A stretch of DNA of 29,077 bases from positions 1-29,077 of the forward strand of contig CAZCMN010000013.1 in assembly GCA_964500015.1 (NCBI GenBank). Direction: 5' to 3'. Under the pieces are notes generated by a model. The model was given only the letters and a program-made list of their open reading frames with translations. It did no database searches and was not told the DNA's origin. Both the position numbers and the translations under genes were made by a program. Each line of letters starts with the position of its first letter. The first letter of the stretch is position 1. Shown one piece after another: positions 5,350 to 13,578 of this stretch. This DNA is from Candidatus Woesearchaeota archaeon. GTDB lineage: Archaea > Nanobdellota > Nanobdellia > Pacearchaeales > UBA284.

Positions 5350-5444
5350 CGCCCGGACCAAGAATTGAACTTGGATATCCTTGCGGAAACAACCTTTTTG
5401 ACTTTCGGTTCCAGGGTTGCGCCTTACCATTGGGCCATCCGGGC
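5350..5444 (-). tRNA. tRNA-Ser(GGA) with a 13-nt intron 3' of the anticodon
   Basis: Minus-strand read: GCCCGGA TG GCCC AATGGTA AGGC G CAACC CTGGAA[CCGAAAGTCAAAA]A GGTTG TTTCCGCAAGGATAT CCAAG TTCAATT CTTGG TCCGGGC G. The acceptor is a perfect 7 bp. The 15-nt variable arm and G73 fit Ser. Anticodon-stem closure requires removing about 13 nt at the canonical 37/38 position. I could not draw a strict bulge-helix-bulge. Confidence 0.8.
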
Positions 5445-10020: not shown

Positions 10021-11232
10021 ATGGAAACAATAGCTGATTTACATATACATTCTAGATTTGCTCGGGCAACTTCACATGATTTAAATTTGGCTAATTTAGA
10101 AAAATGGGCAAGAATAAAAGGGGTTAATTTGTTAGGAACAGGAGATTTTACTCATCCGTTATGGATTAAAGAAATCAAACAGGAATTAGAAGAAGAAAAC
10201 GGAATTTTAAAAACAAAAACCGGATTTCCTTTTGTTTTGCAAGGTGAAATTTCTTTAATGTATTCTCAGGGAGGAAAGGGAAGAAGAGTTCATCTTGTTT
10301 TATTAGCTCCTAGTTTAGAAATTGCTGACCAGATTAATTCTTTTTTACTTAAAAAAGGAAGACTAGATTATGATGGAAGGCCTATTTTTGGAATGAGCTG
10401 TATTGATGCTGTTGAAAATTTAAAAGCAATTTCAGATGATATTGAAATAATTCCAGCACATATCTGGACTCCGTGGTTTGGATTGTTAGGAAGCAAGTCT
10501 GGATTTGATTCTTTTGAAGAAGCTTTTAAAGATCAGGTTAAACATATTTATTCTTTTGAAACAGGAATATCTAGTGATCCTGCAATGAATTGGCGTTTGT
10601 CTAATCTTGATAAATTTTCTATTTTATCTTCTTCAGATTTGCATAGTTACTGGCCTTGGAGACTTGGAAGAGAGAGTAGTATTTTTGATTTTAAAGAATT
10701 AAATTATAAGAATCTGATTAAAGCAATCAGGACAAAAGAGGGATTAAAAGGAACAATTGAAGTAAATCCAGAATATGGAAAATATCATTTTGATGGTCAT
10801 AGGTTTTGTAAATTTTCTTGTTCTCCTGAAGAAAGCAAAAAAAGAAAAAATCTCTGTCCTGTTTGTGGAAAACTATTGACAATTGGTGTTGAAAATAGGG
10901 TTGAAGAATTAGCAGACAGACCTGTTGGTTTTAAAATGTCAGGAGCCAAGCCATTTTATTCTTTGTTGCCTTTACATGAATTGATTTCCATTGTTTTGGG
11001 TGTAAGTGTTTCAACAAAAAAAGTCTGGGAGCATTATAATCCTTTGATAAATAAATTTGGAAATGAGTTTAATGTTTTAATGAATGCTACAGCTGAAGAA
11101 TTGAAAAAAGTTACTGATGAAAAAATTGTTTCTGTAATTTTAAGAAATAGGGAAGGAAAAATAAAAGTTGAGCCAGGATATGATGGAGAATATGGAAAAG
11201 CTGTTTTAGCAGAGCAGAAAAAGTTATTCTAG
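10021..11232 (+). CDS. endoQ: endonuclease Q (EndoQ) family protein, PHP-like N-terminus plus Zn finger
   Basis: ADLHIHSRFARATS, GTGDFTHPLW, PAHIWTPWFG, SSDLHSYWPWRLGRE, GKYHFDGHRFC, CPVCGKLLTIGVENRVEELA and C-terminal PGYDGEYG match the EndoQ pattern as I recall it from Pyrococcus EndoQ. EndoQ cleaves 5' of deaminated bases. Confidence 0.75.
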   Translation: METIADLHIHSRFARATSHDLNLANLEKWARIKGVNLLGTGDFTHPLWIKEIKQELEEENGILKTKTGFPFVLQGEISLMYSQGGKGRRVHLVLLAPSLEIADQINSFLLKKGRLDYDGRPIFGMSCIDAVENLKAISDDIEIIPAHIWTPWFGLLGSKSGFDSFEEAFKDQVKHIYSFETGISSDPAMNWRLSNLDKFSILSSSDLHSYWPWRLGRESSIFDFKELNYKNLIKAIRTKEGLKGTIEVNPEYGKYHFDGHRFCKFSCSPEESKKRKNLCPVCGKLLTIGVENRVEELADRPVGFKMSGAKPFYSLLPLHELISIVLGVSVSTKKVWEHYNPLINKFGNEFNVLMNATAEELKKVTDEKIVSVILRNREGKIKVEPGYDGEYGKAVLAEQKKLF

Positions 11233-11276
11233 ATTTTAGTTAATATTATAAAAACCAAATAATTGGGTTTTTAAGA

Positions 11277-11325
11277 GCCCCCATAGTTTAGCAGATAGAA
11301 CTAATTTTGAACCTCGGTAAAAGTT
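11277..11325 (+). tRNA. interrupted tRNA gene, 5' segment (acceptor 5' strand, D-arm, anticodon-stem 5' strand)
   Basis: GCCCCCA TA GTTT AGCAGATA GAAC T AATTT TGAACCTCGGTAA AAGTT. U8, A9, G10:C25, A14 and A21 are in place. No T-arm or acceptor 3' strand follows locally. The matching 3' strand lies at 12196-12202. Confidence 0.5.
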
Positions 11326-11336
11326 TATAAAGTCGA

Positions 11337-12080
11337 ATGTTCTTTTTATATATGGCCATAAGTATTCAAACAAGAAACAAGTTTATCGCTTTAATAAAAA
11401 AGGGAAAATCTCTCAATGAAATTACAAAAATAACTGGAGTTGGTAAAACAACAGTGTACTATCATATGCGTAAAATCAGGGGTAGAAGAAATAAACCGAT
11501 AACAATTAAAAAAGATAATTTGGAATTGTTAGGAGAAGTTTTAGGATTTTTTGCCGGTGATGGCAGTTTAGTCAATCGGCCGGATAAATGGGATTATAGG
11601 GTAAAATTTTTTTTAAATATAAAAGAGGTTTTGGTAGTCAAAAATTATAATGACTCTATCTCTAGATTTATTGGAAAACCAGCAACCTTATTCAATAGAG
11701 GTTCGATGACAATAATCCAAATTACTTCTAAAGACTTTTGTGAATTTATAAAAGATTATTTAAAATTTGGAAAAAGCAAGACAAAGACAATAGAATTAAA
11801 AAATAAAGATTTATTAAAAAATATTAGATTCACTATTGGATTTATGAAGGGATTAATTGATTCTGATGGATATGTAAGGAAAGATAGAAAGGAGATTTAT
11901 TTTGGTTCAATATCCAGAAAACTGGCAAATGATTTTATCAGTGGACTGAATCTTTTGAGTATACGATTTAAAGAATATATTCAAAAAAGGCAGAATTGTA
12001 ATGATTTTTATAAGATAAGGATTAGTGGTGTAGAAGTAGATAGATTTAATAAAATTATAAAACCTATTAAAGCATCATAA
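11337..12080 (+). CDS. LAGLIDADG-family homing endonuclease with N-terminal helix-turn-helix
   Basis: Two LAGLIDADG motifs (LGFFAGDGSL and IGFMKGLIDSDGYV) are about 100 residues apart. N-terminal HTH is SLNEITKITGVGKTTVYYHMRKI. An alternative start is ATG 11352. Confidence 0.8.
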   Translation: MFFLYMAISIQTRNKFIALIKKGKSLNEITKITGVGKTTVYYHMRKIRGRRNKPITIKKDNLELLGEVLGFFAGDGSLVNRPDKWDYRVKFFLNIKEVLVVKNYNDSISRFIGKPATLFNRGSMTIIQITSKDFCEFIKDYLKFGKSKTKTIELKNKDLLKNIRFTIGFMKGLIDSDGYVRKDRKEIYFGSISRKLANDFISGLNLLSIRFKEYIQKRQNCNDFYKIRISGVEVDRFNKIIKPIKAS

Positions 12081-12086
12081 TGTTAT

Positions 12087-12158
12087 GGGCACGTGGTATA
12101 ATGGATAGTATAAAACCTTGCGGAGGTTTTGATTCAGGTTCGAATCCTGACGCGCCCG
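12087..12158 (+). tRNA. tRNA-Arg(GCG)
   Basis: GGGCACG TG GTAT AATGGATA GTAT A AAACC TTGCGGA GGTTT TGAT TCAGG TTCGAAT CCTGA CGCGCCC G. It forms a 72-nt cloverleaf with a canonical T-loop and G18G19. There is one A5:C68 acceptor mismatch and a wobble-rich D-stem. Confidence 0.8.
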
Positions 12159-12167
12159 TTTTTTAAT

Positions 12168-12203
12168 AAGTTTGTGACCGAGGTGCAATTCCTCGTGGGG
12201 GCG
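12168..12203 (+). tRNA. interrupted tRNA gene, 3' segment (anticodon-stem 3' strand, T-arm, acceptor 3' strand)
   Basis: AAGTT TGTGAC CGAGG TGCAATT CCTCG TGGGGGC G. TGGGGGC is the perfect 7/7 complement of GCCCCCA at 11277-11283. AAGTT pairs with AATTT at 11303-11307 (one G:U). The T-loop is non-canonical (G at position 55). Confidence 0.5.
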
Positions 12204-12224
12204 TTTCGAATCCTGATGTGGGCG
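12204..12224 (+). pseudogene. orphan tRNA 3' fragment (T-loop, T-stem 3' strand, acceptor 3' strand)
   Basis: TTTCGAATCCTGATGTGGGCG shares TTCGAATCCTGA with the tRNA-Arg 3' end (12140-12151) but carries a different acceptor strand (TGTGGGC). No T-stem 5' strand lies upstream. Confidence 0.5.
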
Positions 12225-12225
12225 T

Positions 12226-12972
12226 TTAACCACAACTTGCTAAAACATTTTTTTGTTCTGCTTGTTCTTTGCTTGAAAAACAAACTAAATTTTCTGGCTT
12301 GATTCTTTTAGCATTGTAACATGAACATTTGTGATATTTGTCTGAGTTTTTGCTTGCAACATATAAAGTTCCGGGAGGACAGCCTAAAGAAATGCAAGCA
12401 TCATCTGTAAGGTTAGATGTGGGGGTAAATGTTATATCTGAATTATTAGAGATTGTTTGATTTTCTTCTGAAAATGAATTTTCATTTAATCTAGACCAGA
12501 TGCCGATTCTTTGGCTTATAGCTAGGTTTTCAGCATCTTTTATTTTTTGTTTGTATTTTTCTCCATCATATAATCTTGAGATAGCTAAGCCATTTTGAAT
12601 CTGTTCTAAATTTATCAGGGAATTGTCAAGCCAAATCCATCTTAATGATCTACTATAAACGTCTTTGTCTTCTATATCTGATTCAAGATAAACTTCTTTG
12701 AAAAGAATTCTGTTTTCAATATAATCTTTTGCATCTGAGTAATAAGGTTCACCTCTTTCAGGAGTATCTATTCCTAATAATCTAATTGTTTCTCCGCCTT
12801 GAACAATTACTGTGTCACCATCAACTATTTTTGTTACAATGACTTTTTCAGAATTTTCTAGATTAAATGTATCTTGCGATTCTTGATTTTTTGTGGTTTG
12901 TTGAATTACACAGCCCGATGTCAAGAGAATAATTAGTAAAAGAAGAACCAAAAAAATAACTTCTTTTCTCAT
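12226..12972 (-). CDS. secreted lipoprotein thermonuclease (SNase-like) with Cys-rich C-terminal module
   Basis: Signal peptide plus lipobox LLTSGC. SNase core VDGDTVIVQGGETIRLLGIDTPE...YSRSLRWIW...NGLA. The C-terminal segment is YHKCSCYNAKRIKPENLVCFSSKEQAEQ...C. Confidence 0.8.
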   Translation of the reverse strand: MRKEVIFLVLLLLIILLTSGCVIQQTTKNQESQDTFNLENSEKVIVTKIVDGDTVIVQGGETIRLLGIDTPERGEPYYSDAKDYIENRILFKEVYLESDIEDKDVYSRSLRWIWLDNSLINLEQIQNGLAISRLYDGEKYKQKIKDAENLAISQRIGIWSRLNENSFSEENQTISNNSDITFTPTSNLTDDACISLGCPPGTLYVASKNSDKYHKCSCYNAKRIKPENLVCFSSKEQAEQKNVLASCG

Positions 12973-12973
12973 T

Positions 12974-13396
12974 TTATACCTTCCAAATTTCTTCTACGAA
13001 ATTCTTTCCAAATTTAACAGATGTTACTTCTATTTTCTTATTTAGTGCAGCAAACATCAAATAAGTCATTAAATGCGAAGGAGTGTATTTTTCTTTGATT
13101 AATCTTCTAGAAGAGGGAGCTAGAATTATTTTTTCCATTCTAATTTTTATTTTTTCTCCAAAGTTCTGGACTTTTATTTTTTTTAGGTAACCTACTTTTT
13201 CAAGAAATTTGGCAATTTCTTTAATGTTTTTGAAATCAGAATCGTGTTTTTTGATTAATTTTGATTTGAGCAGTTCACTATAAAATATTTTTCCGGCATT
13301 TTTGAATGACTCATTTGTTTTTTTATTGCCTAATTTTATAGAAAACGATTTGCATACTGAATAATTGAACAAGTCAAAAAATTTATCCTCTATCAT
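12974..13396 (-). CDS. hypothetical protein (co-directional with and 1 nt from the nuclease gene)
   Basis: 140-aa ORF, Lys-rich. No motif recognised. Confidence 0.5.
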   Translation of the reverse strand: MIEDKFFDLFNYSVCKSFSIKLGNKKTNESFKNAGKIFYSELLKSKLIKKHDSDFKNIKEIAKFLEKVGYLKKIKVQNFGEKIKIRMEKIILAPSSRRLIKEKYTPSHLMTYLMFAALNKKIEVTSVKFGKNFVEEIWKV

Positions 13397-13405
13397 TTTT
13401 TCATA

Positions 13406-13477
13406 TGGCTGTGGGGAGAGTTAAACTCCCGACATCTGCCTTATGAGAGCAGCACTCTATCGCTGAGTTACACAGCC
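13406..13477 (-). tRNA. tRNA(CAT): elongator Met or Ile2
   Basis: Minus-strand read: GGCTGTG TA ACTC AGCGATA GAGT G CTGCT CTCATAA GGCAG ATGTC GGGAG TTTAACT CTCCC CACAGCC A. Acceptor is 7 bp. It is not the initiator type (no A1:U72). Met versus agmatidine-modified Ile2 cannot be told from sequence. Confidence 0.8.
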
Positions 13478-13578
13478 AATATTTTGAAACATACTGGATT
13501 TAAAAGGTTTTTTAAAGTAAGTTCTTTCTTTATTTTAGAGGGGATGATTCGACCTCAGCGAATTCTGAGAAAATTAAA

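What the first reader, a model, noticed from the sequence alone, without database searches (positions are those of the whole stretch)
11277..12203. tRNA gene split by about 860 nt carrying a LAGLIDADG endonuclease ORF and a complete tRNA-Arg
At 11277 there is a clean tRNA 5' part: GCCCCCA-TA-GTTT-AGCAGATA-GAAC-T-AATTT. The only matching 3' part is at 12168-12203: AAGTT-TGTGAC-CGAGG-TGCAATT-CCTCG-TGGGGGC-G.

Evidence that the two belong together:
- The acceptor strands are a perfect 7/7, GC-rich complement in a genome of about 30% GC.
- The anticodon-stem strands pair 5/5 (one G:U).

Between them lie a double-motif LAGLIDADG homing-endonuclease ORF with an N-terminal HTH (11337-12080) and an intact tRNA-Arg(GCG) (12087-12158).

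Possible interpretations:
- A giant tRNA intron encoding a homing endonuclease with a nested tRNA. Archaeal LAGLIDADG enzymes are known from rRNA introns and inteins, not, to my knowledge, from tRNA introns.
- A Nanoarchaeum-style split tRNA.
- A tRNA killed by insertion of a mobile cassette.

Odd details:
- AAGTTT occurs at both edges (11321-11326 and 12168-12173), so the junction is ambiguous and looks like a short target duplication.
- ACCTCGGT (11311-11318) is the exact complement of ACCGAGGT (12177-12184).
- I could not derive a canonical 7-nt anticodon loop or a strict bulge-helix-bulge. The anticodon is unassigned.
Basis: partly seen in the sequence, partly recalled or inferred. Interest (0 to 1): 0.8.

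Follow-up and report, generated by a model that had tools for sequence, protein, structure and literature searches.

The report
Broken tRNA-Arg gene with endonuclease and spare
The two tRNA pieces are the remains of this archaeon's original arginine-tRNA gene, broken by an insert that holds a homing-endonuclease gene and a complete substitute arginine tRNA; this is not a giant intron, but it belongs to an apparently undescribed family of endonucleases that sit on tRNA genes in DPANN archaea.

Summary
11277-11301 and 12170-12203 are positions 1-25 and 39-73 of a tRNA-Arg(GCG) gene. Four related genomes carry that gene uninterrupted at the same place, downstream of the EndoQ-like gene (L051, L052, L054, L135).

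The intron and split-tRNA readings fail. The anticodon-stem 5' strand and the anticodon loop (positions 26-38) are gone, so no splicing could rebuild a tRNA. The ACCTCGGT/ACCGAGGT match is T-arm homology, not a splicing helix.

The 868-bp insert has two parts:
- A free-standing endonuclease module of about 780 bp: an inverted T-arm remnant, its own TATA box, and a 242-aa HTH + double-LAGLIDADG ORF.
- A complete, divergent tRNA-Arg(GCG), "Arg2", with its own TATA box and an oligo-T stop. I take it to be the working copy.

A relative (L138) has the same broken gene and Arg2 but no endonuclease, so the module is gained or lost on its own.

Across the family, the ORF abuts a tRNA gene in 51 of 84 loci. 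Three other lineages repeat the pattern [quoted passage not shown].

The closest known analogue is phage T4 SegB. Whether the enzyme cleaves tRNA genes is inferred, not shown.

The parts
11244..11254 (+). TATA-like box (TATTATAAAAA) about 28 nt upstream of the broken tRNA gene. It is probably the resident tRNA promoter.
   Evidence: Read by eye. The block ATTATAAAAAC..ATAATT.GGTTTTT is conserved in the endonuclease-less relative L138. Similar A/T boxes lie about 20-30 nt upstream of the intact orthologues. Its function is inferred.
11277..11301 (+). 5' remnant of the resident tRNA-Arg(GCG) gene ('X'): acceptor 5' strand, U8-A9 and the D-arm (positions 1-25).
   Evidence: 23/25 identical to the intact tRNA-Arg(GCG) of L054, and it aligns with L051 and L052. 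Homology stops after GAAC.
11304..11318 (-). Inverted remnant of a tRNA-Arg variable region, T-stem 5' strand and T-loop (reverse complement ACCGAGGTTCAAAAT). It forms the left border of the endonuclease module.
Evidence: Its first 12 nt (ACCGAGGTTCAA) are identical to the L052 T-arm region, GACCGAGGTTCAAGT. The same 'TGAACCTCGG + TTAAAT.TATAAA' junction precedes the homologous ORFs in L004/L057, L008/L061, L016, L058, L060 and others.
11319..11331 (+). Purine-rich stretch plus TATA box (AAAAG-TTTATAAA): the endonuclease gene's own archaeal-type promoter, implying a leaderless mRNA.
   Evidence: It is positionally conserved with the TTAAAT(N)TATAAA blocks upstream of homologues. It ends 21 nt before the ATG at 11352. 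Its function is inferred.
11352..12080 (+). Free-standing homing-endonuclease gene: 242 aa, an N-terminal three-helix HTH and a monomeric double-LAGLIDADG core. An in-frame ATG at 11337 is unlikely to be used.
   Evidence: Pfam LAGLIDADG_3 E 2e-11 plus weak HTH hits. Both motifs (GxFAGDG, GLIDSDGY) and their acidic residues D70 and D172 are invariant in 22 homologues. The AlphaFold model has pLDDT 93. Foldseek top hits are the TliVMA intein endonuclease 7qsu (E 8.5e-11) and I-DmoI (target-normalised TM about 0.78). The family profile hits 7qsu at E 3.7e-10. A gene call of 242 aa (P0001) starts at 11352.
12055..12062 (+). TATA-like box (TTATAAAA) inside the 3' end of the ORF, about 28 nt upstream of Arg2.
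   Evidence: Read by eye. Its function is inferred.
12087..12158 (+). Arg2: a complete, intron-less tRNA-Arg(GCG) with a different acceptor stem (GGGCACG/CGCGCCC). It is the presumed working copy.
   Evidence: ARAGORN and Rfam tRNA at 57.3 bits. An orthologous copy is present in L138. Its body resembles the resident tRNA of L135, but the acceptor stem is different.
12159..12169 (+). Oligo-T run (TTTTTT) and a short spacer after Arg2: a likely transcription stop.
   Evidence: Sequence. The intact orthologues are also followed by T-runs. Its function is inferred.
12170..12203 (+). 3' remnant of the resident tRNA-Arg(GCG) 'X': anticodon-stem 3' strand, variable region, T-arm with the unusual loop TGCAATT, acceptor 3' strand and discriminator (positions 39-73).
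   Evidence: It aligns with L051, L052 and L054. The same odd T-loop TGCAATT occurs in the intact genes of L051 and L054. A decayed counterpart is present in L138.
12205..12224 (+). Fragment 'Y': T-loop, T-stem 3' strand, acceptor 3' strand and discriminator of yet another tRNA-Arg-like gene (TTCGAAT-CCTGA-TGTGGGC-G). It abuts the SNase gene stop.
   Evidence: Direct-repeat family D1. No 5' partner GCCCACA occurs on the + strand of the window. An orthologous, more decayed copy is in L138. It resembles the 3' ends of Arg2 and of the L135 tRNA. Its origin is unresolved.

Best explanation
SHOWN
- The two pieces are what is left of the lineage's resident tRNA-Arg(GCG) gene: positions 1-25 at 11277-11301 and positions 39-73 at 12170-12203.
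- Related genomes have this gene whole at the same locus.
- In the window, positions 26-38 (the anticodon-stem 5' strand and the anticodon loop) have been replaced by 868 bp (11302-12169). The pieces therefore cannot be spliced into a tRNA.

The insert has two parts:
1. An endonuclease module of about 780 bp. It carries an inverted T-arm scrap from an earlier tRNA-Arg host, its own TATA box, and a leaderless ORF for a monomeric double-LAGLIDADG endonuclease with an N-terminal HTH.
2. Arg2, a complete tRNA-Arg(GCG) with a different acceptor stem, its own TATA box and an oligo-T stop.

A relative (L138) has the same broken gene plus Arg2 but no endonuclease module. So the tRNA replacement predates the split of the two lineages, and the module is a separately gained or lost unit sitting 6 nt from the 5' end of Arg2.

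INFERRED
- Arg2 now supplies the GCG isoacceptor.
- The enzyme family cuts tRNA genes, or the ends of tRNA genes, in genomes that lack it.
- Repair then copies the endonuclease gene, often together with the linked tRNA.
- Because the linked tRNA differs in sequence from the resident one (acceptor stem, or an intron), it escapes cutting and keeps the host viable. The resident gene is left as flanking remnants.

This amounts to intron-less homing with a built-in replacement of the essential target.
For: Intact orthologous genes:
- tRNA-Arg(GCG) lies downstream of EndoQ-like orthologues (74-87% aa identity) in L051 4580-4653, L052 4836-4907, L054 4315-4388 and L135 3750-3821.
- Alignments A2 and A3 show the window pieces matching positions 1-25 and 39-73, with nothing matching TTGCGGA.

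No tRNA can be made from the pieces:
- ARAGORN with long introns allowed finds nothing spanning them.
- 363 permissive junction calls give many different anticodons.
- Rfam detects only Arg2 and no intron family.

Endonuclease-less allele:
- The window minus 11305-12077 aligns colinearly with L138 through the promoter, X 5' remnant, Arg2, decayed X 3' remnant, Y and the SNase end.

The enzyme looks real and probably active.

Family-wide docking on tRNA genes:
- ARAGORN finds a tRNA within 60 nt of the ORF stop in 51 of 84 distinct loci, against a background of 0.05 tRNA per kb.
- ARAGORN misses many of the multi-intron tRNA-Gly(UCC) genes that can be read by eye next to further ORFs.
- Perfect T-arm hairpin fragments lie upstream of the promoter in 9 of 79 loci, against about 0.4 expected.

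Independent repeats of 'HE + complete tRNA-Arg(GCG) between a 3' and a 5' remnant of a second tRNA-Arg(GCG) with complementary acceptor strands': L015/L063, L060 and L069.

Precedent: T4 SegB, a free-standing endonuclease in a tRNA gene cluster that recognises the TpsiC stem-loop motif and spreads itself together with neighbouring tRNA genes (PMC2330249).
Against: - No cleavage site is known. Nothing here shows that this enzyme cuts tRNA-Arg genes.
- Because L138 has the broken gene and Arg2 without the endonuclease, the disruption of X cannot be tied directly to this copy of the enzyme. Either loss of the module in L138 or later gain in the window fits the data.
- In the window the resident gene is in the same orientation as the ORF, whereas in the three parallel loci it is antisense. 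I could not derive the window arrangement from the common one by a single inversion or insertion.
- The window's X 3' remnant is much better preserved than its L138 counterpart. A purely neutral relic does not predict this.
- Fragment Y is unexplained.
- Promoters and terminators were read by eye.
- Only 29 kb of the genome was seen, so another tRNA-Arg(GCG) elsewhere cannot be excluded.
Confidence: 0.75

Rival explanations
1. Giant archaeal tRNA intron. The 5' and 3' pieces are exons of one pre-tRNA. The roughly 860-nt intron, which carries the endonuclease gene and a nested tRNA-Arg, is removed by the splicing endonuclease at a (relaxed) bulge-helix-bulge motif.
For: - The acceptor strands are perfectly complementary, and both pieces are well preserved and in the same orientation.
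- A promoter-like box precedes the 5' piece.
- Archaeal rRNA introns are known to carry LAGLIDADG genes (established knowledge).
- DPANN tRNA genes in the related loci carry several non-canonical introns.
- The window's 3' piece is better conserved than expected for a relic.
- My bulge-helix-bulge scan did not detect the motif in the window's own intron-containing tRNA-Ser, so it is a weak negative.
Against: - The exons would lack positions 26-38, including the anticodon loop, relative to four intact orthologues.
- No junction gives a canonical 7-nt loop.
- The proposed anticodon stem is at chance level and out of register.
- ARAGORN with introns up to 3 kb finds nothing.
- An oligo-T stop lies between Arg2 and the 3' piece.
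- The same isoacceptor is supplied by Arg2 inside the 'intron'.
- In L138 the 3' piece has decayed while Arg2 is intact.
Confidence: 0.04
2. Nanoarchaeum-type split tRNA. The two pieces are separately transcribed half-genes, joined in trans through a complementary helix.
For: - The organism is a DPANN archaeon: homologues of the ORF and of the neighbouring genes are labelled Nanoarchaeota, Pacearchaeota or Woesearchaeota.
- A significant 8-12-nt GC-rich complementarity exists between 11307-18 and 12177-88.
Against: - The complementary segment lies inside the 3' piece's own T-stem. It would compete with the T-arm, and it forms a pseudoknot with the proposed anticodon stem.
- It is explained by homology: an inverted T-arm scrap is found at the same place upstream of homologous ORFs.
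- No promoter is visible in front of the 3' piece.
- There is no anticodon loop in either piece.
Confidence: 0.03
3. The rearrangement has nothing to do with the endonuclease. The resident tRNA-Arg gene was broken and replaced by ordinary recombination or horizontal transfer of a second tRNA-Arg gene. The endonuclease gene is a later passenger, or a domesticated DNA-binding protein, that happens to lie beside tRNA genes.
For: - L138 shows the broken gene plus Arg2 without any endonuclease gene.
- No cleavage data exist.
- tRNA genes are general hotspots for integration and rearrangement (established knowledge).
Against: - The tRNA adjacency of the family is extreme: 51 of 84 loci against 0.05 tRNA per kb.
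- The adjacency is precise. The ORF stop codon is often supplied by the tRNA itself: TGA in the reverse-complemented T-loop, or TAG at U8-A9-G10.
- The pattern 'complete tRNA-Arg + ORF flanked by remnants of another tRNA-Arg' recurs in L015, L060 and L069.
- The catalytic motifs are invariant.
- The insert contains no integrase or transposase.
- The AAAAGTT in L138 could be a scar of the module's promoter region.
Confidence: 0.15

Closest known systems
Phage T4 SegB (free-standing GIY-YIG homing endonuclease in the T4 tRNA gene cluster; PMC2330249)
   Same: - It is a free-standing endonuclease gene, in neither an intron nor an intein, embedded among tRNA genes.
- SegB recognises a site containing the conserved TpsiC stem-loop motif of tRNA genes.
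- It spreads its own gene together with neighbouring tRNA genes at the expense of the recipient's tRNA region.
- Here the ORF abuts tRNA genes, T-arm fragments mark the borders, and a linked tRNA has replaced the resident one.
   Different: - A different nuclease family: LAGLIDADG with an HTH, against GIY-YIG.
- A cellular archaeal genome, not a phage.
- One tRNA isoacceptor per endonuclease clade, rather than a cluster.
- The target gene is left as flanking remnants.
- Cleavage has not been demonstrated here.
Archaeal intron- and intein-encoded LAGLIDADG endonucleases (I-DmoI in a 23S rRNA intron; the endonuclease domains of the Thermococcus/Pyrococcus VMA and PI-PfuI inteins)
   Same: - The same fold and catalytic motifs.
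- The best structural and profile matches are 7qsu/7qss (the TliVMA intein endonuclease domain) and I-DmoI.
   Different: - It is not inside a self-splicing or BHB-spliced element. No intron RNA family was found and there are no intein splicing domains.
- It has its own promoter.
- It has an extra N-terminal HTH domain.
- The genes it is associated with are tRNA genes.
tRNA-targeting integrative elements of archaea and bacteria (integrase-mediated, carrying a copy of the tRNA 3' end)
   Same: In the common arrangement of the family, a complete tRNA is followed by the element and then by a displaced copy of the tRNA's T-arm and acceptor 3' strand. This looks like attL/attR.
   Different: - There is no integrase.
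- The cargo is a single endonuclease gene of about 0.75 kb.
- In the Arg group the displaced fragment and the complete tRNA have different acceptor stems. This is replacement rather than reconstitution.
Split and intron-containing tRNA genes of Nanoarchaeum equitans and Thermoproteales
   Same: - tRNA gene pieces are separated on a DPANN chromosome.
- Related loci carry tRNA genes with up to three small introns.
   Different: - The window pieces lack the anticodon loop and have no leader/trailer helix, so they are not functional halves.
- A complete gene for the same isoacceptor lies between them.
Synthetic 'cleave and rescue' gene-drive designs (a nuclease against an essential gene plus a tightly linked recoded rescue copy). 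This comparison comes from my own knowledge and was not checked in the literature tools.
   Same: A nuclease gene is tightly linked to a sequence-divergent copy of the essential gene whose resident copy is destroyed.
   Different: - This would be a natural element, with a protein-guided nuclease, in a prokaryote.
- The 'cleave' step is only inferred.

Membership tests
Archaeal BHB-spliced tRNA intron (with an encoded homing endonuclease) | The exons together contain every part of the tRNA, including a 7-nt anticodon loop. | tested here: not met
   Positions 26-38 are absent compared with the intact orthologues L051, L052, L054 and L135. Enumerating junctions gives no consistent anticodon.
Archaeal BHB-spliced tRNA intron (with an encoded homing endonuclease) | A bulge-helix-bulge (or relaxed hBH) motif at the exon-intron junctions. 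| tested here: inconclusive
   The strict scan gave 2 hits against 1.4 expected from shuffles; the relaxed scan gave 22 against 19.8. However, the scan also failed to find a motif in the window's own intron-containing tRNA-Ser, so it is insensitive.
Archaeal BHB-spliced tRNA intron (with an encoded homing endonuclease) | One continuous precursor transcript that is spliced and ligated. | not testable with these tools
   This needs RNA-seq or circRNA-seq. The oligo-T run at 12159-12164, between Arg2 and the 3' piece, argues against read-through (an inference).
Nanoarchaeum-type split tRNA | Separate promoters for each half, with a GC-rich trailer of the 5' half complementary to a leader of the 3' half. 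| tested here: not met
   The only significant complementarity (11307-18 with 12177-88) lies inside the 3' piece's T-stem and is an inherited T-arm scrap. No TATA box lies between Arg2 and 12170.
Self-splicing group I or II intron in a tRNA gene | A ribozyme core detectable by covariance models. | tested here: not met
   The Rfam scan of 11200-12300 up to E = 10 gave no intron family, only Arg2. The whole-window gathering scan gave only three tRNAs.
LAGLIDADG homing endonuclease (protein family) | Two LAGLIDADG motifs with conserved acidic residues, and the alpha-beta-beta-alpha-beta-beta-alpha double-domain fold. | tested here: met
   Pfam LAGLIDADG_3. D70 and D172 are invariant in 22 sequences. 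The model has pLDDT 93, and Foldseek gives probability 1.00 to I-DmoI and the TliVMA endonuclease.
LAGLIDADG homing endonuclease (protein family) | Site-specific double-strand cleavage of the allele that lacks the gene. | not testable with these tools
   This requires an enzyme assay on L051-type and L138-type DNA.
Free-standing homing endonuclease / intron-less homing (SegB-like) | The gene lies outside any intron or intein and has its own expression signals. | tested here: met
   There are no intron RNA and no intein domains. A conserved TATA block lies 21 nt upstream of the ATG at 11352. Promoter function is inferred.
Free-standing homing endonuclease / intron-less homing (SegB-like) | Presence/absence polymorphism at one site among close relatives. 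| tested here: met
   L138 is colinear with the window except for about 11305-12080.
Free-standing homing endonuclease / intron-less homing (SegB-like) | Consistent linkage to the gene class that carries the target site. | tested here: met
   51 of 84 distinct loci have a tRNA within 60 nt of the ORF stop, against 0.05 tRNA per kb elsewhere in the same loci. That tRNA genes actually carry the target site is itself an inference.
Integrase-type tRNA-targeting integrative element | It encodes a tyrosine or serine recombinase and is bounded by att repeats derived from the tRNA 3' end. | tested here: not met
   The only ORF of at least 40 aa with a family match in 11302-12169 is the LAGLIDADG protein. 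The HTH hits to transposase and resolvase HTH models are below their cut-offs and cover only about 40 residues.

The most novel reading that the evidence does not exclude
The HTH-LAGLIDADG family (at least 173 clusters at 50% identity) would be a natural 'cleave-and-rescue' selfish element of DPANN archaea. Each enzyme clade would cut one kind of tRNA gene and travel with, or dock onto, a sequence-divergent copy of that tRNA (a swapped acceptor stem, or a small intron) that is immune and rescues the host. Broken resident genes would be left behind as remnants. If so, part of the unusual tRNA-gene landscape of DPANN archaea would be a product of, or a defence against, these endonucleases. That landscape includes multiple non-canonical introns, odd T-loops such as TGCAATT, and gene fragments. 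It would also make the old idea that tRNA introns and split tRNA genes protect against mobile elements directly testable.
Probability: 0.3. Interest if true: 0.85.

Novelty: new variant of a known kind. Interest (0 to 1): 0.6.

Why it matters
For this window, the finding turns an apparent giant intron or split tRNA into an annotated pseudogene plus a working replacement. That matters for tRNA censuses of reduced DPANN genomes: an automatic count sees one tRNA-Arg(GCG) and misses the history behind it.

More broadly, it points to a compact, apparently undescribed class of archaeal mobile element. This is a free-standing LAGLIDADG endonuclease with an added HTH domain that is docked, to the nucleotide, on tRNA genes of many isotypes across Nanoarchaeota, Woesearchaeota, Aenigmarchaeota and Micrarchaeota. 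In at least four lineages it is associated with destruction of the resident tRNA-Arg gene and its replacement by a linked copy.

If cleavage of tRNA genes is confirmed, this would be:
- an archaeal, cellular counterpart of phage T4 SegB;
- a natural example of a nuclease linked to a rescue copy of its essential target;
- a concrete selective agent for tRNA-gene introns and fragmentation;
- a source of new meganuclease specificities.

Five full-text literature searches found no description of it, but the library searched is incomplete.

Tried and rejected
- **ARAGORN with long introns.** With introns up to 3 kb on 11200-12300 and on the whole window, no tRNA spans the pieces. A lowered score threshold gives only spurious calls.
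- **Brute-force joining.** Joining 45 x 26 junctions and scoring with ARAGORN gave 363 permissive calls (Stop, Leu, Ile, Lys, Gln, Phe, Pro, Tyr and others) and no unique solution.
- **AAGTTT target-duplication model.** This model proposes that the tRNA was originally contiguous through 11326, with a 13-nt 'loop' TGAACCTCGGTAA. I rejected it for three reasons: AAGTTT is at background frequency; TGAACCTCGG + TAAA..TATAAA is homologous to the left border of the endonuclease module in other loci; and the orthologues have TTGCGGA there.
- **Bulge-helix-bulge scan.** No excess over shuffles, but my positive control failed, so I give this little weight.
- **MFE fold of the joined junctions.** It simply pairs the acceptor strands and the T-arm scrap with the T-stem, and is uninformative.
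- **Single-sequence PDB search.** Only weak HTH hits. The family profile was needed.
- **Deriving the window arrangement from the common one.** The common arrangement is: reverse-complemented 3' fragment, then promoter and ORF, then tRNA. I tried a single inversion between T-arm or acceptor inverted repeats. Every version either inverts Arg2 or loses part of the 3' remnant, so the history is left unresolved.
- **Y-like fragment near SNase in relatives.** None was found in L051, L052 or L054. It was later found in decayed form in L138.
- **Automated remnant finder.** The script for upstream fragments and matching 5' remnants was unreliable and crashed. The three parallel loci were therefore read by hand.
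- **L022.** I first read it as a tRNA-Gly split by the cassette. Re-reading showed a complete multi-intron tRNA-Gly plus an extra intron-less 3' fragment.
- **L047.** The 'tRNA-Asp with a 1163-nt intron' from ARAGORN is a complete tRNA followed 1.1 kb later by a 3' fragment.
- **Literature searches.** Searches for LAGLIDADG or homing endonuclease with split tRNA, tRNA intron, DPANN or free-standing found nothing relevant except SegB.


Full report
**1. What is in the sequence**

The window is AT-rich (30.7% GC).
- GCCCCCA-TA-GTTT-AGCAGATA-GAAC lies at 11277-11301.
- GTTTG-TGAC-CGAGG-TGCAATT-CCTCG-TGGGGGC-G lies at 12170-12203.
- Between them are an ORF (11337/11352-12080) and a tRNA-Arg(GCG) at 12087-12158, which I call Arg2. 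Both ARAGORN and Rfam call it (57.3 bits).
- GCCCCCA is rare: 3 sites on both strands, two of them this pair.
- The ORF matches Pfam LAGLIDADG_3 (E 2e-11) and has an N-terminal HTH.
- A third tRNA 3' fragment, "Y" (TTCGAAT-CCTGA-TGTGGGC-G, 12205-12224), follows directly. With the 3' ends of Arg2 and of the 3' piece it forms a three-copy direct-repeat family. No GCCCACA partner exists on the + strand.
- The same locus occurs with zero mismatches in four other contigs from four other assemblies (L001, L002, L003, L056). So it is not an assembly artefact.

**2. Identity of the two pieces**

The upstream gene (10021-11232) is an EndoQ-like protein (TIGR00375 / MJ0043_C). I fetched the loci of its closest homologues (74-87% identity). 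In L051, L052/L053, L054/L055 and L135 an uninterrupted tRNA-Arg(GCG) lies downstream of that gene, on the same strand, in a Thy1-EndoQ-...-SNase neighbourhood like the window's.
- L054 reads GTCCCCA TA GTTC AGCAGATA GAAC A TCTCG TTGCGGA CGAGA TAAC CAAGG TGCAATT CCTTG TGGGGAC G.
- L051 has the same unusual T-loop, TGCAATT.
- In alignments A2 and A3 the window's 5' piece matches positions 1-25 (23/25 identical to L054). The 3' piece matches positions 39-73 (27/29 identical to L051 from the variable region to the discriminator). Nothing in the window matches position 26, the anticodon-stem 5' strand or the loop TTGCGGA.

The pieces are therefore the two ends of the lineage's resident tRNA-Arg(GCG) gene, which I call "X". 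Its middle is missing.

**3.
- The acceptor complementarity is genuine and was inherited from the intact gene.
- The AATTT/AAGTT "anticodon stem" is not evidence. 60% of random pairs of 15-nt windows from this sequence contain a 5-bp WC/GU stem. The stem is also 2 nt out of register with the orthologues.
- AAGTTT occurs 62 times against 66 expected.
- ACCTCGGT/ACCGAGGT is significant (0.08 expected), but it is homology rather than a splicing helix. The reverse complement of 11304-18 is ACCGAGGTTCAAAAT, a variable-region/T-stem/T-loop segment of an X-type tRNA-Arg; its first 12 nt are identical to L052.

**4. Tests of the intron and split-tRNA readings**
- ARAGORN with introns up to 3 kb finds no tRNA spanning the pieces.
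- Joining the pieces at 1,170 junction combinations gives 363 permissive calls with many different anticodons.
- Rfam finds no group I or II intron or any other family between the pieces, even at E = 10.
- A bulge-helix-bulge scan gives no more hits than shuffled sequence. My scan also missed the window's own intron-containing tRNA-Ser, so this negative is weak.
- The decisive point is the missing anticodon loop.
- In addition, Arg2 is followed by TTTTTT just before the 3' piece, and there is no promoter-like box in front of the 3' piece (by eye).

**5. The protein**
- There are 31 homologues in the first search (40-57% identical, labelled Nanoarchaeota where named).
- There are 173 clusters at 50% identity with E <= 1e-30 in the 1.84-billion-protein library, nearly all 240-270 aa and matched end to end.
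- Both LAGLIDADG motifs (GxFAGDG, GLIDSDGY) and their aspartates are invariant.
- The AlphaFold model (pLDDT 93) shows a three-helix N-terminal domain plus a double alpha-beta-beta-alpha-beta-beta-alpha core.
- Foldseek and a profile search put it closest to the endonuclease domain of the Thermococcus VMA intein (7qsu) and to I-DmoI.
- A conserved block "(G/A)TTAAAT(N)TATAAA" precedes all close homologues. In the window it is TAAAAGTTTATAAAG, 11318-11332, ending about 20 nt before the ATG at 11352. That ATG is where a public gene call (P0001, 242 aa) and the family alignment start. I infer an own promoter and a leaderless mRNA.

**6. Genomic context of the family**

I collected 37 loci from reference genomes and 79 from metagenomes.
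- In 51 of 84 distinct loci with enough 3' flank, ARAGORN places a tRNA within 60 nt of the ORF stop. Elsewhere in the same loci the density is 0.05 tRNA per kb.
- Many ARAGORN-negative loci carry a multi-intron tRNA-Gly(UCC) that can be read by eye.
- The contact is precise. With an antisense tRNA, the ORF often runs into the tRNA's 3' end and stops at the TGA of the reverse-complemented T-loop (ATTTGAA). With a sense tRNA, it often stops at the TAG formed by U8-A9-G10.
- The tRNA isotype follows the enzyme clade. The window's closest relatives sit on Arg(GCG); more distant ones sit on Gly(UCC), Ala(GGC), Gly(CCC), Pro(UGG) and others. ARAGORN isotype calls for intron-bearing genes are unreliable.
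- Upstream of the promoter there is often an inverted tRNA 3' fragment (acceptor 3' strand plus T-arm). Perfect T-arm hairpins occur in 9 of 79 loci, against about 0.4 expected.

**7. Parallels to the window**

Three other Arg-group loci show an endonuclease gene plus a complete tRNA-Arg(GCG), flanked by a 3' and a 5' remnant of a second tRNA-Arg(GCG) whose acceptor strands are complementary.
- L015/L063: 3' fragment about 609-633, complete tRNA 1401-1472, 5' part 1536-1582.
- L060: 3' fragment about 707-733, 5' fragment about 1641-1665.
- L069: 3' fragment about 1122-1146, complete tRNA 1923-2011, 5' fragment 2012-2043.

In each locus the complete tRNA and the remnants have different acceptor stems (GGGC-type against GCCCC-type, in either combination). 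The window differs in one respect: its remnants are in the same orientation as the ORF.

**8. The endonuclease-less allele**

L138 (EndoQ 86% identical) reads, after EndoQ:
1. the same promoter block;
2. the X 5' remnant (GCCCCCGTAGGTTAGCGGATAGACTA);
3. AAAGTT;
4. a complete Arg2-type tRNA-Arg(GCG);
5. a T-run;
6. a decayed X 3' remnant with an 18-nt insertion;
7. a decayed Y;
8. the SNase 3' end.

The window with 11305-12077 removed aligns colinearly with L138. Three things follow.
- X was already broken and Arg2 already in place in the common ancestor of the two lineages.
- The endonuclease module (inverted T-arm scrap, promoter and ORF, about 780 bp) is a separate presence/absence unit, lying 6 nt from the 5' end of Arg2.
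- The "860-nt insert" is composite.

Whether L138 lost the module or the window gained it is open. The AAAAGTT in L138 could be a scar of the module's promoter region, which would favour loss.

**9. Mechanism**

Shown:
- a broken resident gene;
- a complete divergent replacement;
- an endonuclease with intact catalytic motifs;
- a module polymorphism;
- family-wide docking on tRNA genes.

Inferred: the enzymes cut tRNA genes or their termini in naive genomes. Repair then copies the endonuclease gene and, when homology runs out on one side, the linked tRNA as well. This leaves remnants of the resident gene. The linked tRNA escapes cutting because it differs in sequence. Arg2's body resembles the resident tRNA of L135, but its acceptor stem is entirely different.

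The inverted T-arm scrap shows that the window's module previously sat next to an X-type tRNA-Arg in the common antisense arrangement. It fits a one-sided homologous repair finished by end joining.

I could not reconstruct the exact steps. Unexplained items:
- fragment Y;
- the orientation difference from the parallel loci;
- the much better preservation of the X 3' remnant in the window than in L138.

**10. Comparison with known systems**
- The closest functional analogue is phage T4 SegB. [quoted passage not shown]
- Structurally the protein belongs with the archaeal intron and intein LAGLIDADG enzymes, but it is in neither an intron nor an intein.
- The common family arrangement resembles tRNA-targeting integrative elements, but there is no integrase.
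- Five literature searches found no description of LAGLIDADG genes associated with tRNA genes in DPANN archaea. The library is incomplete, so this is absence of evidence only.

**11. Verdict**
- The giant-intron and split-tRNA interpretations are not supported.
To it I add that the cassette carries its own replacement tRNA, and that the endonuclease belongs to a sizeable tRNA-docking family.
- I rate it a new variant of a known kind (free-standing homing endonuclease, intron-less homing), with moderate to high interest (0.6).

Noticed in passing
window 12205-12224: A third tRNA 3' fragment 'Y' (TTCGAAT-CCTGA-TGTGGGC-G) sits directly after the 3' remnant and abuts the SNase stop codon. Its T-loop and T-stem are identical to Arg2's, but its acceptor is of the GCCC type. 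A decayed orthologue exists in L138. Its origin is unknown.
   Followed up: partly
window 5350-5444 (-): An intron-containing tRNA. Default ARAGORN calls it Val(AAC). With introns allowed it is tRNA-Ser(GGA) with a 13-nt intron after position 37 and a long variable arm. Rfam scores it at 45.4 bits.
   Followed up: partly
L054 5808-6494 compared with window 12974-13478: In the relative L054, a different double-LAGLIDADG ORF (228 aa, no HTH) overlaps the 3' end of an antisense tRNA-Met; its C-terminus ...VELPTSAL is encoded by the reverse complement of the tRNA. The window has the same tRNA-Met (13405-13478) with no endonuclease and an unrelated 140-aa ORF instead. A second endonuclease family therefore uses the same docking geometry.
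   Followed up: partly
L018, L020-L030, L035, L039 (3' flank of the ORFs): The tRNA-Gly(UCC) genes linked to the endonuclease carry one to three small introns, always including one of about 27 nt between the T-stem 5' strand and the T-loop. The extra 3' fragments upstream of the promoter (L022, L035) have an uninterrupted T-arm. This could reflect immunity of the linked copy. It was not compared with endonuclease-free genomes.
   Followed up: no
L051 4580-4653, L054 4315-4388, window 12184-12190: The resident tRNA-Arg(GCG) of this clade has a non-canonical T-loop, TGCAATT (G in place of the near-universal U55), in intact genes. L052 has TTCAAGT and L135 has the canonical TTCGAAT.
   Followed up: no
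window 12251 (ends of L002, L003, L056): Three short contigs from three different assemblies (MEGAHIT k141, Logan, JGI) all end at exactly window position 12251, 27 nt beyond fragment Y. This suggests a branch point, meaning strain heterogeneity to the right of the locus.
   Followed up: no
L047 2785-2890 and 3985-4023: ARAGORN's 'tRNA-Asp with a 1163-nt intron' is in fact a complete tRNA downstream of a family member. It is followed 1.1 kb later by a 3' fragment starting at the anticodon-stem 3' strand (CCGCAGGAC-CCGGG-TTCAAAT-CCCGG...CCA), with two unrelated ORFs in between.
   Followed up: partly
L004 1-2437: The RadA gene next to the homologous endonuclease locus contains an intein with its own LAGLIDADG_3 domain (828 aa product).
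   Followed up: no
L136 5349-5422: A complete 648-kb DPANN genome (CP070794.1) has, near its EndoQ and SNase genes, a tRNA that ARAGORN calls Arg(ACG). That anticodon is unusual for archaea.
   Followed up: no
L058 about 1-115: Upstream of the usual inverted 3' fragment there are two further T-loop-like scraps in opposite orientations (AGAATTTGAACCTC and CGGTTCAAATC). This suggests repeated breakage and repair at T-arms.
   Followed up: no
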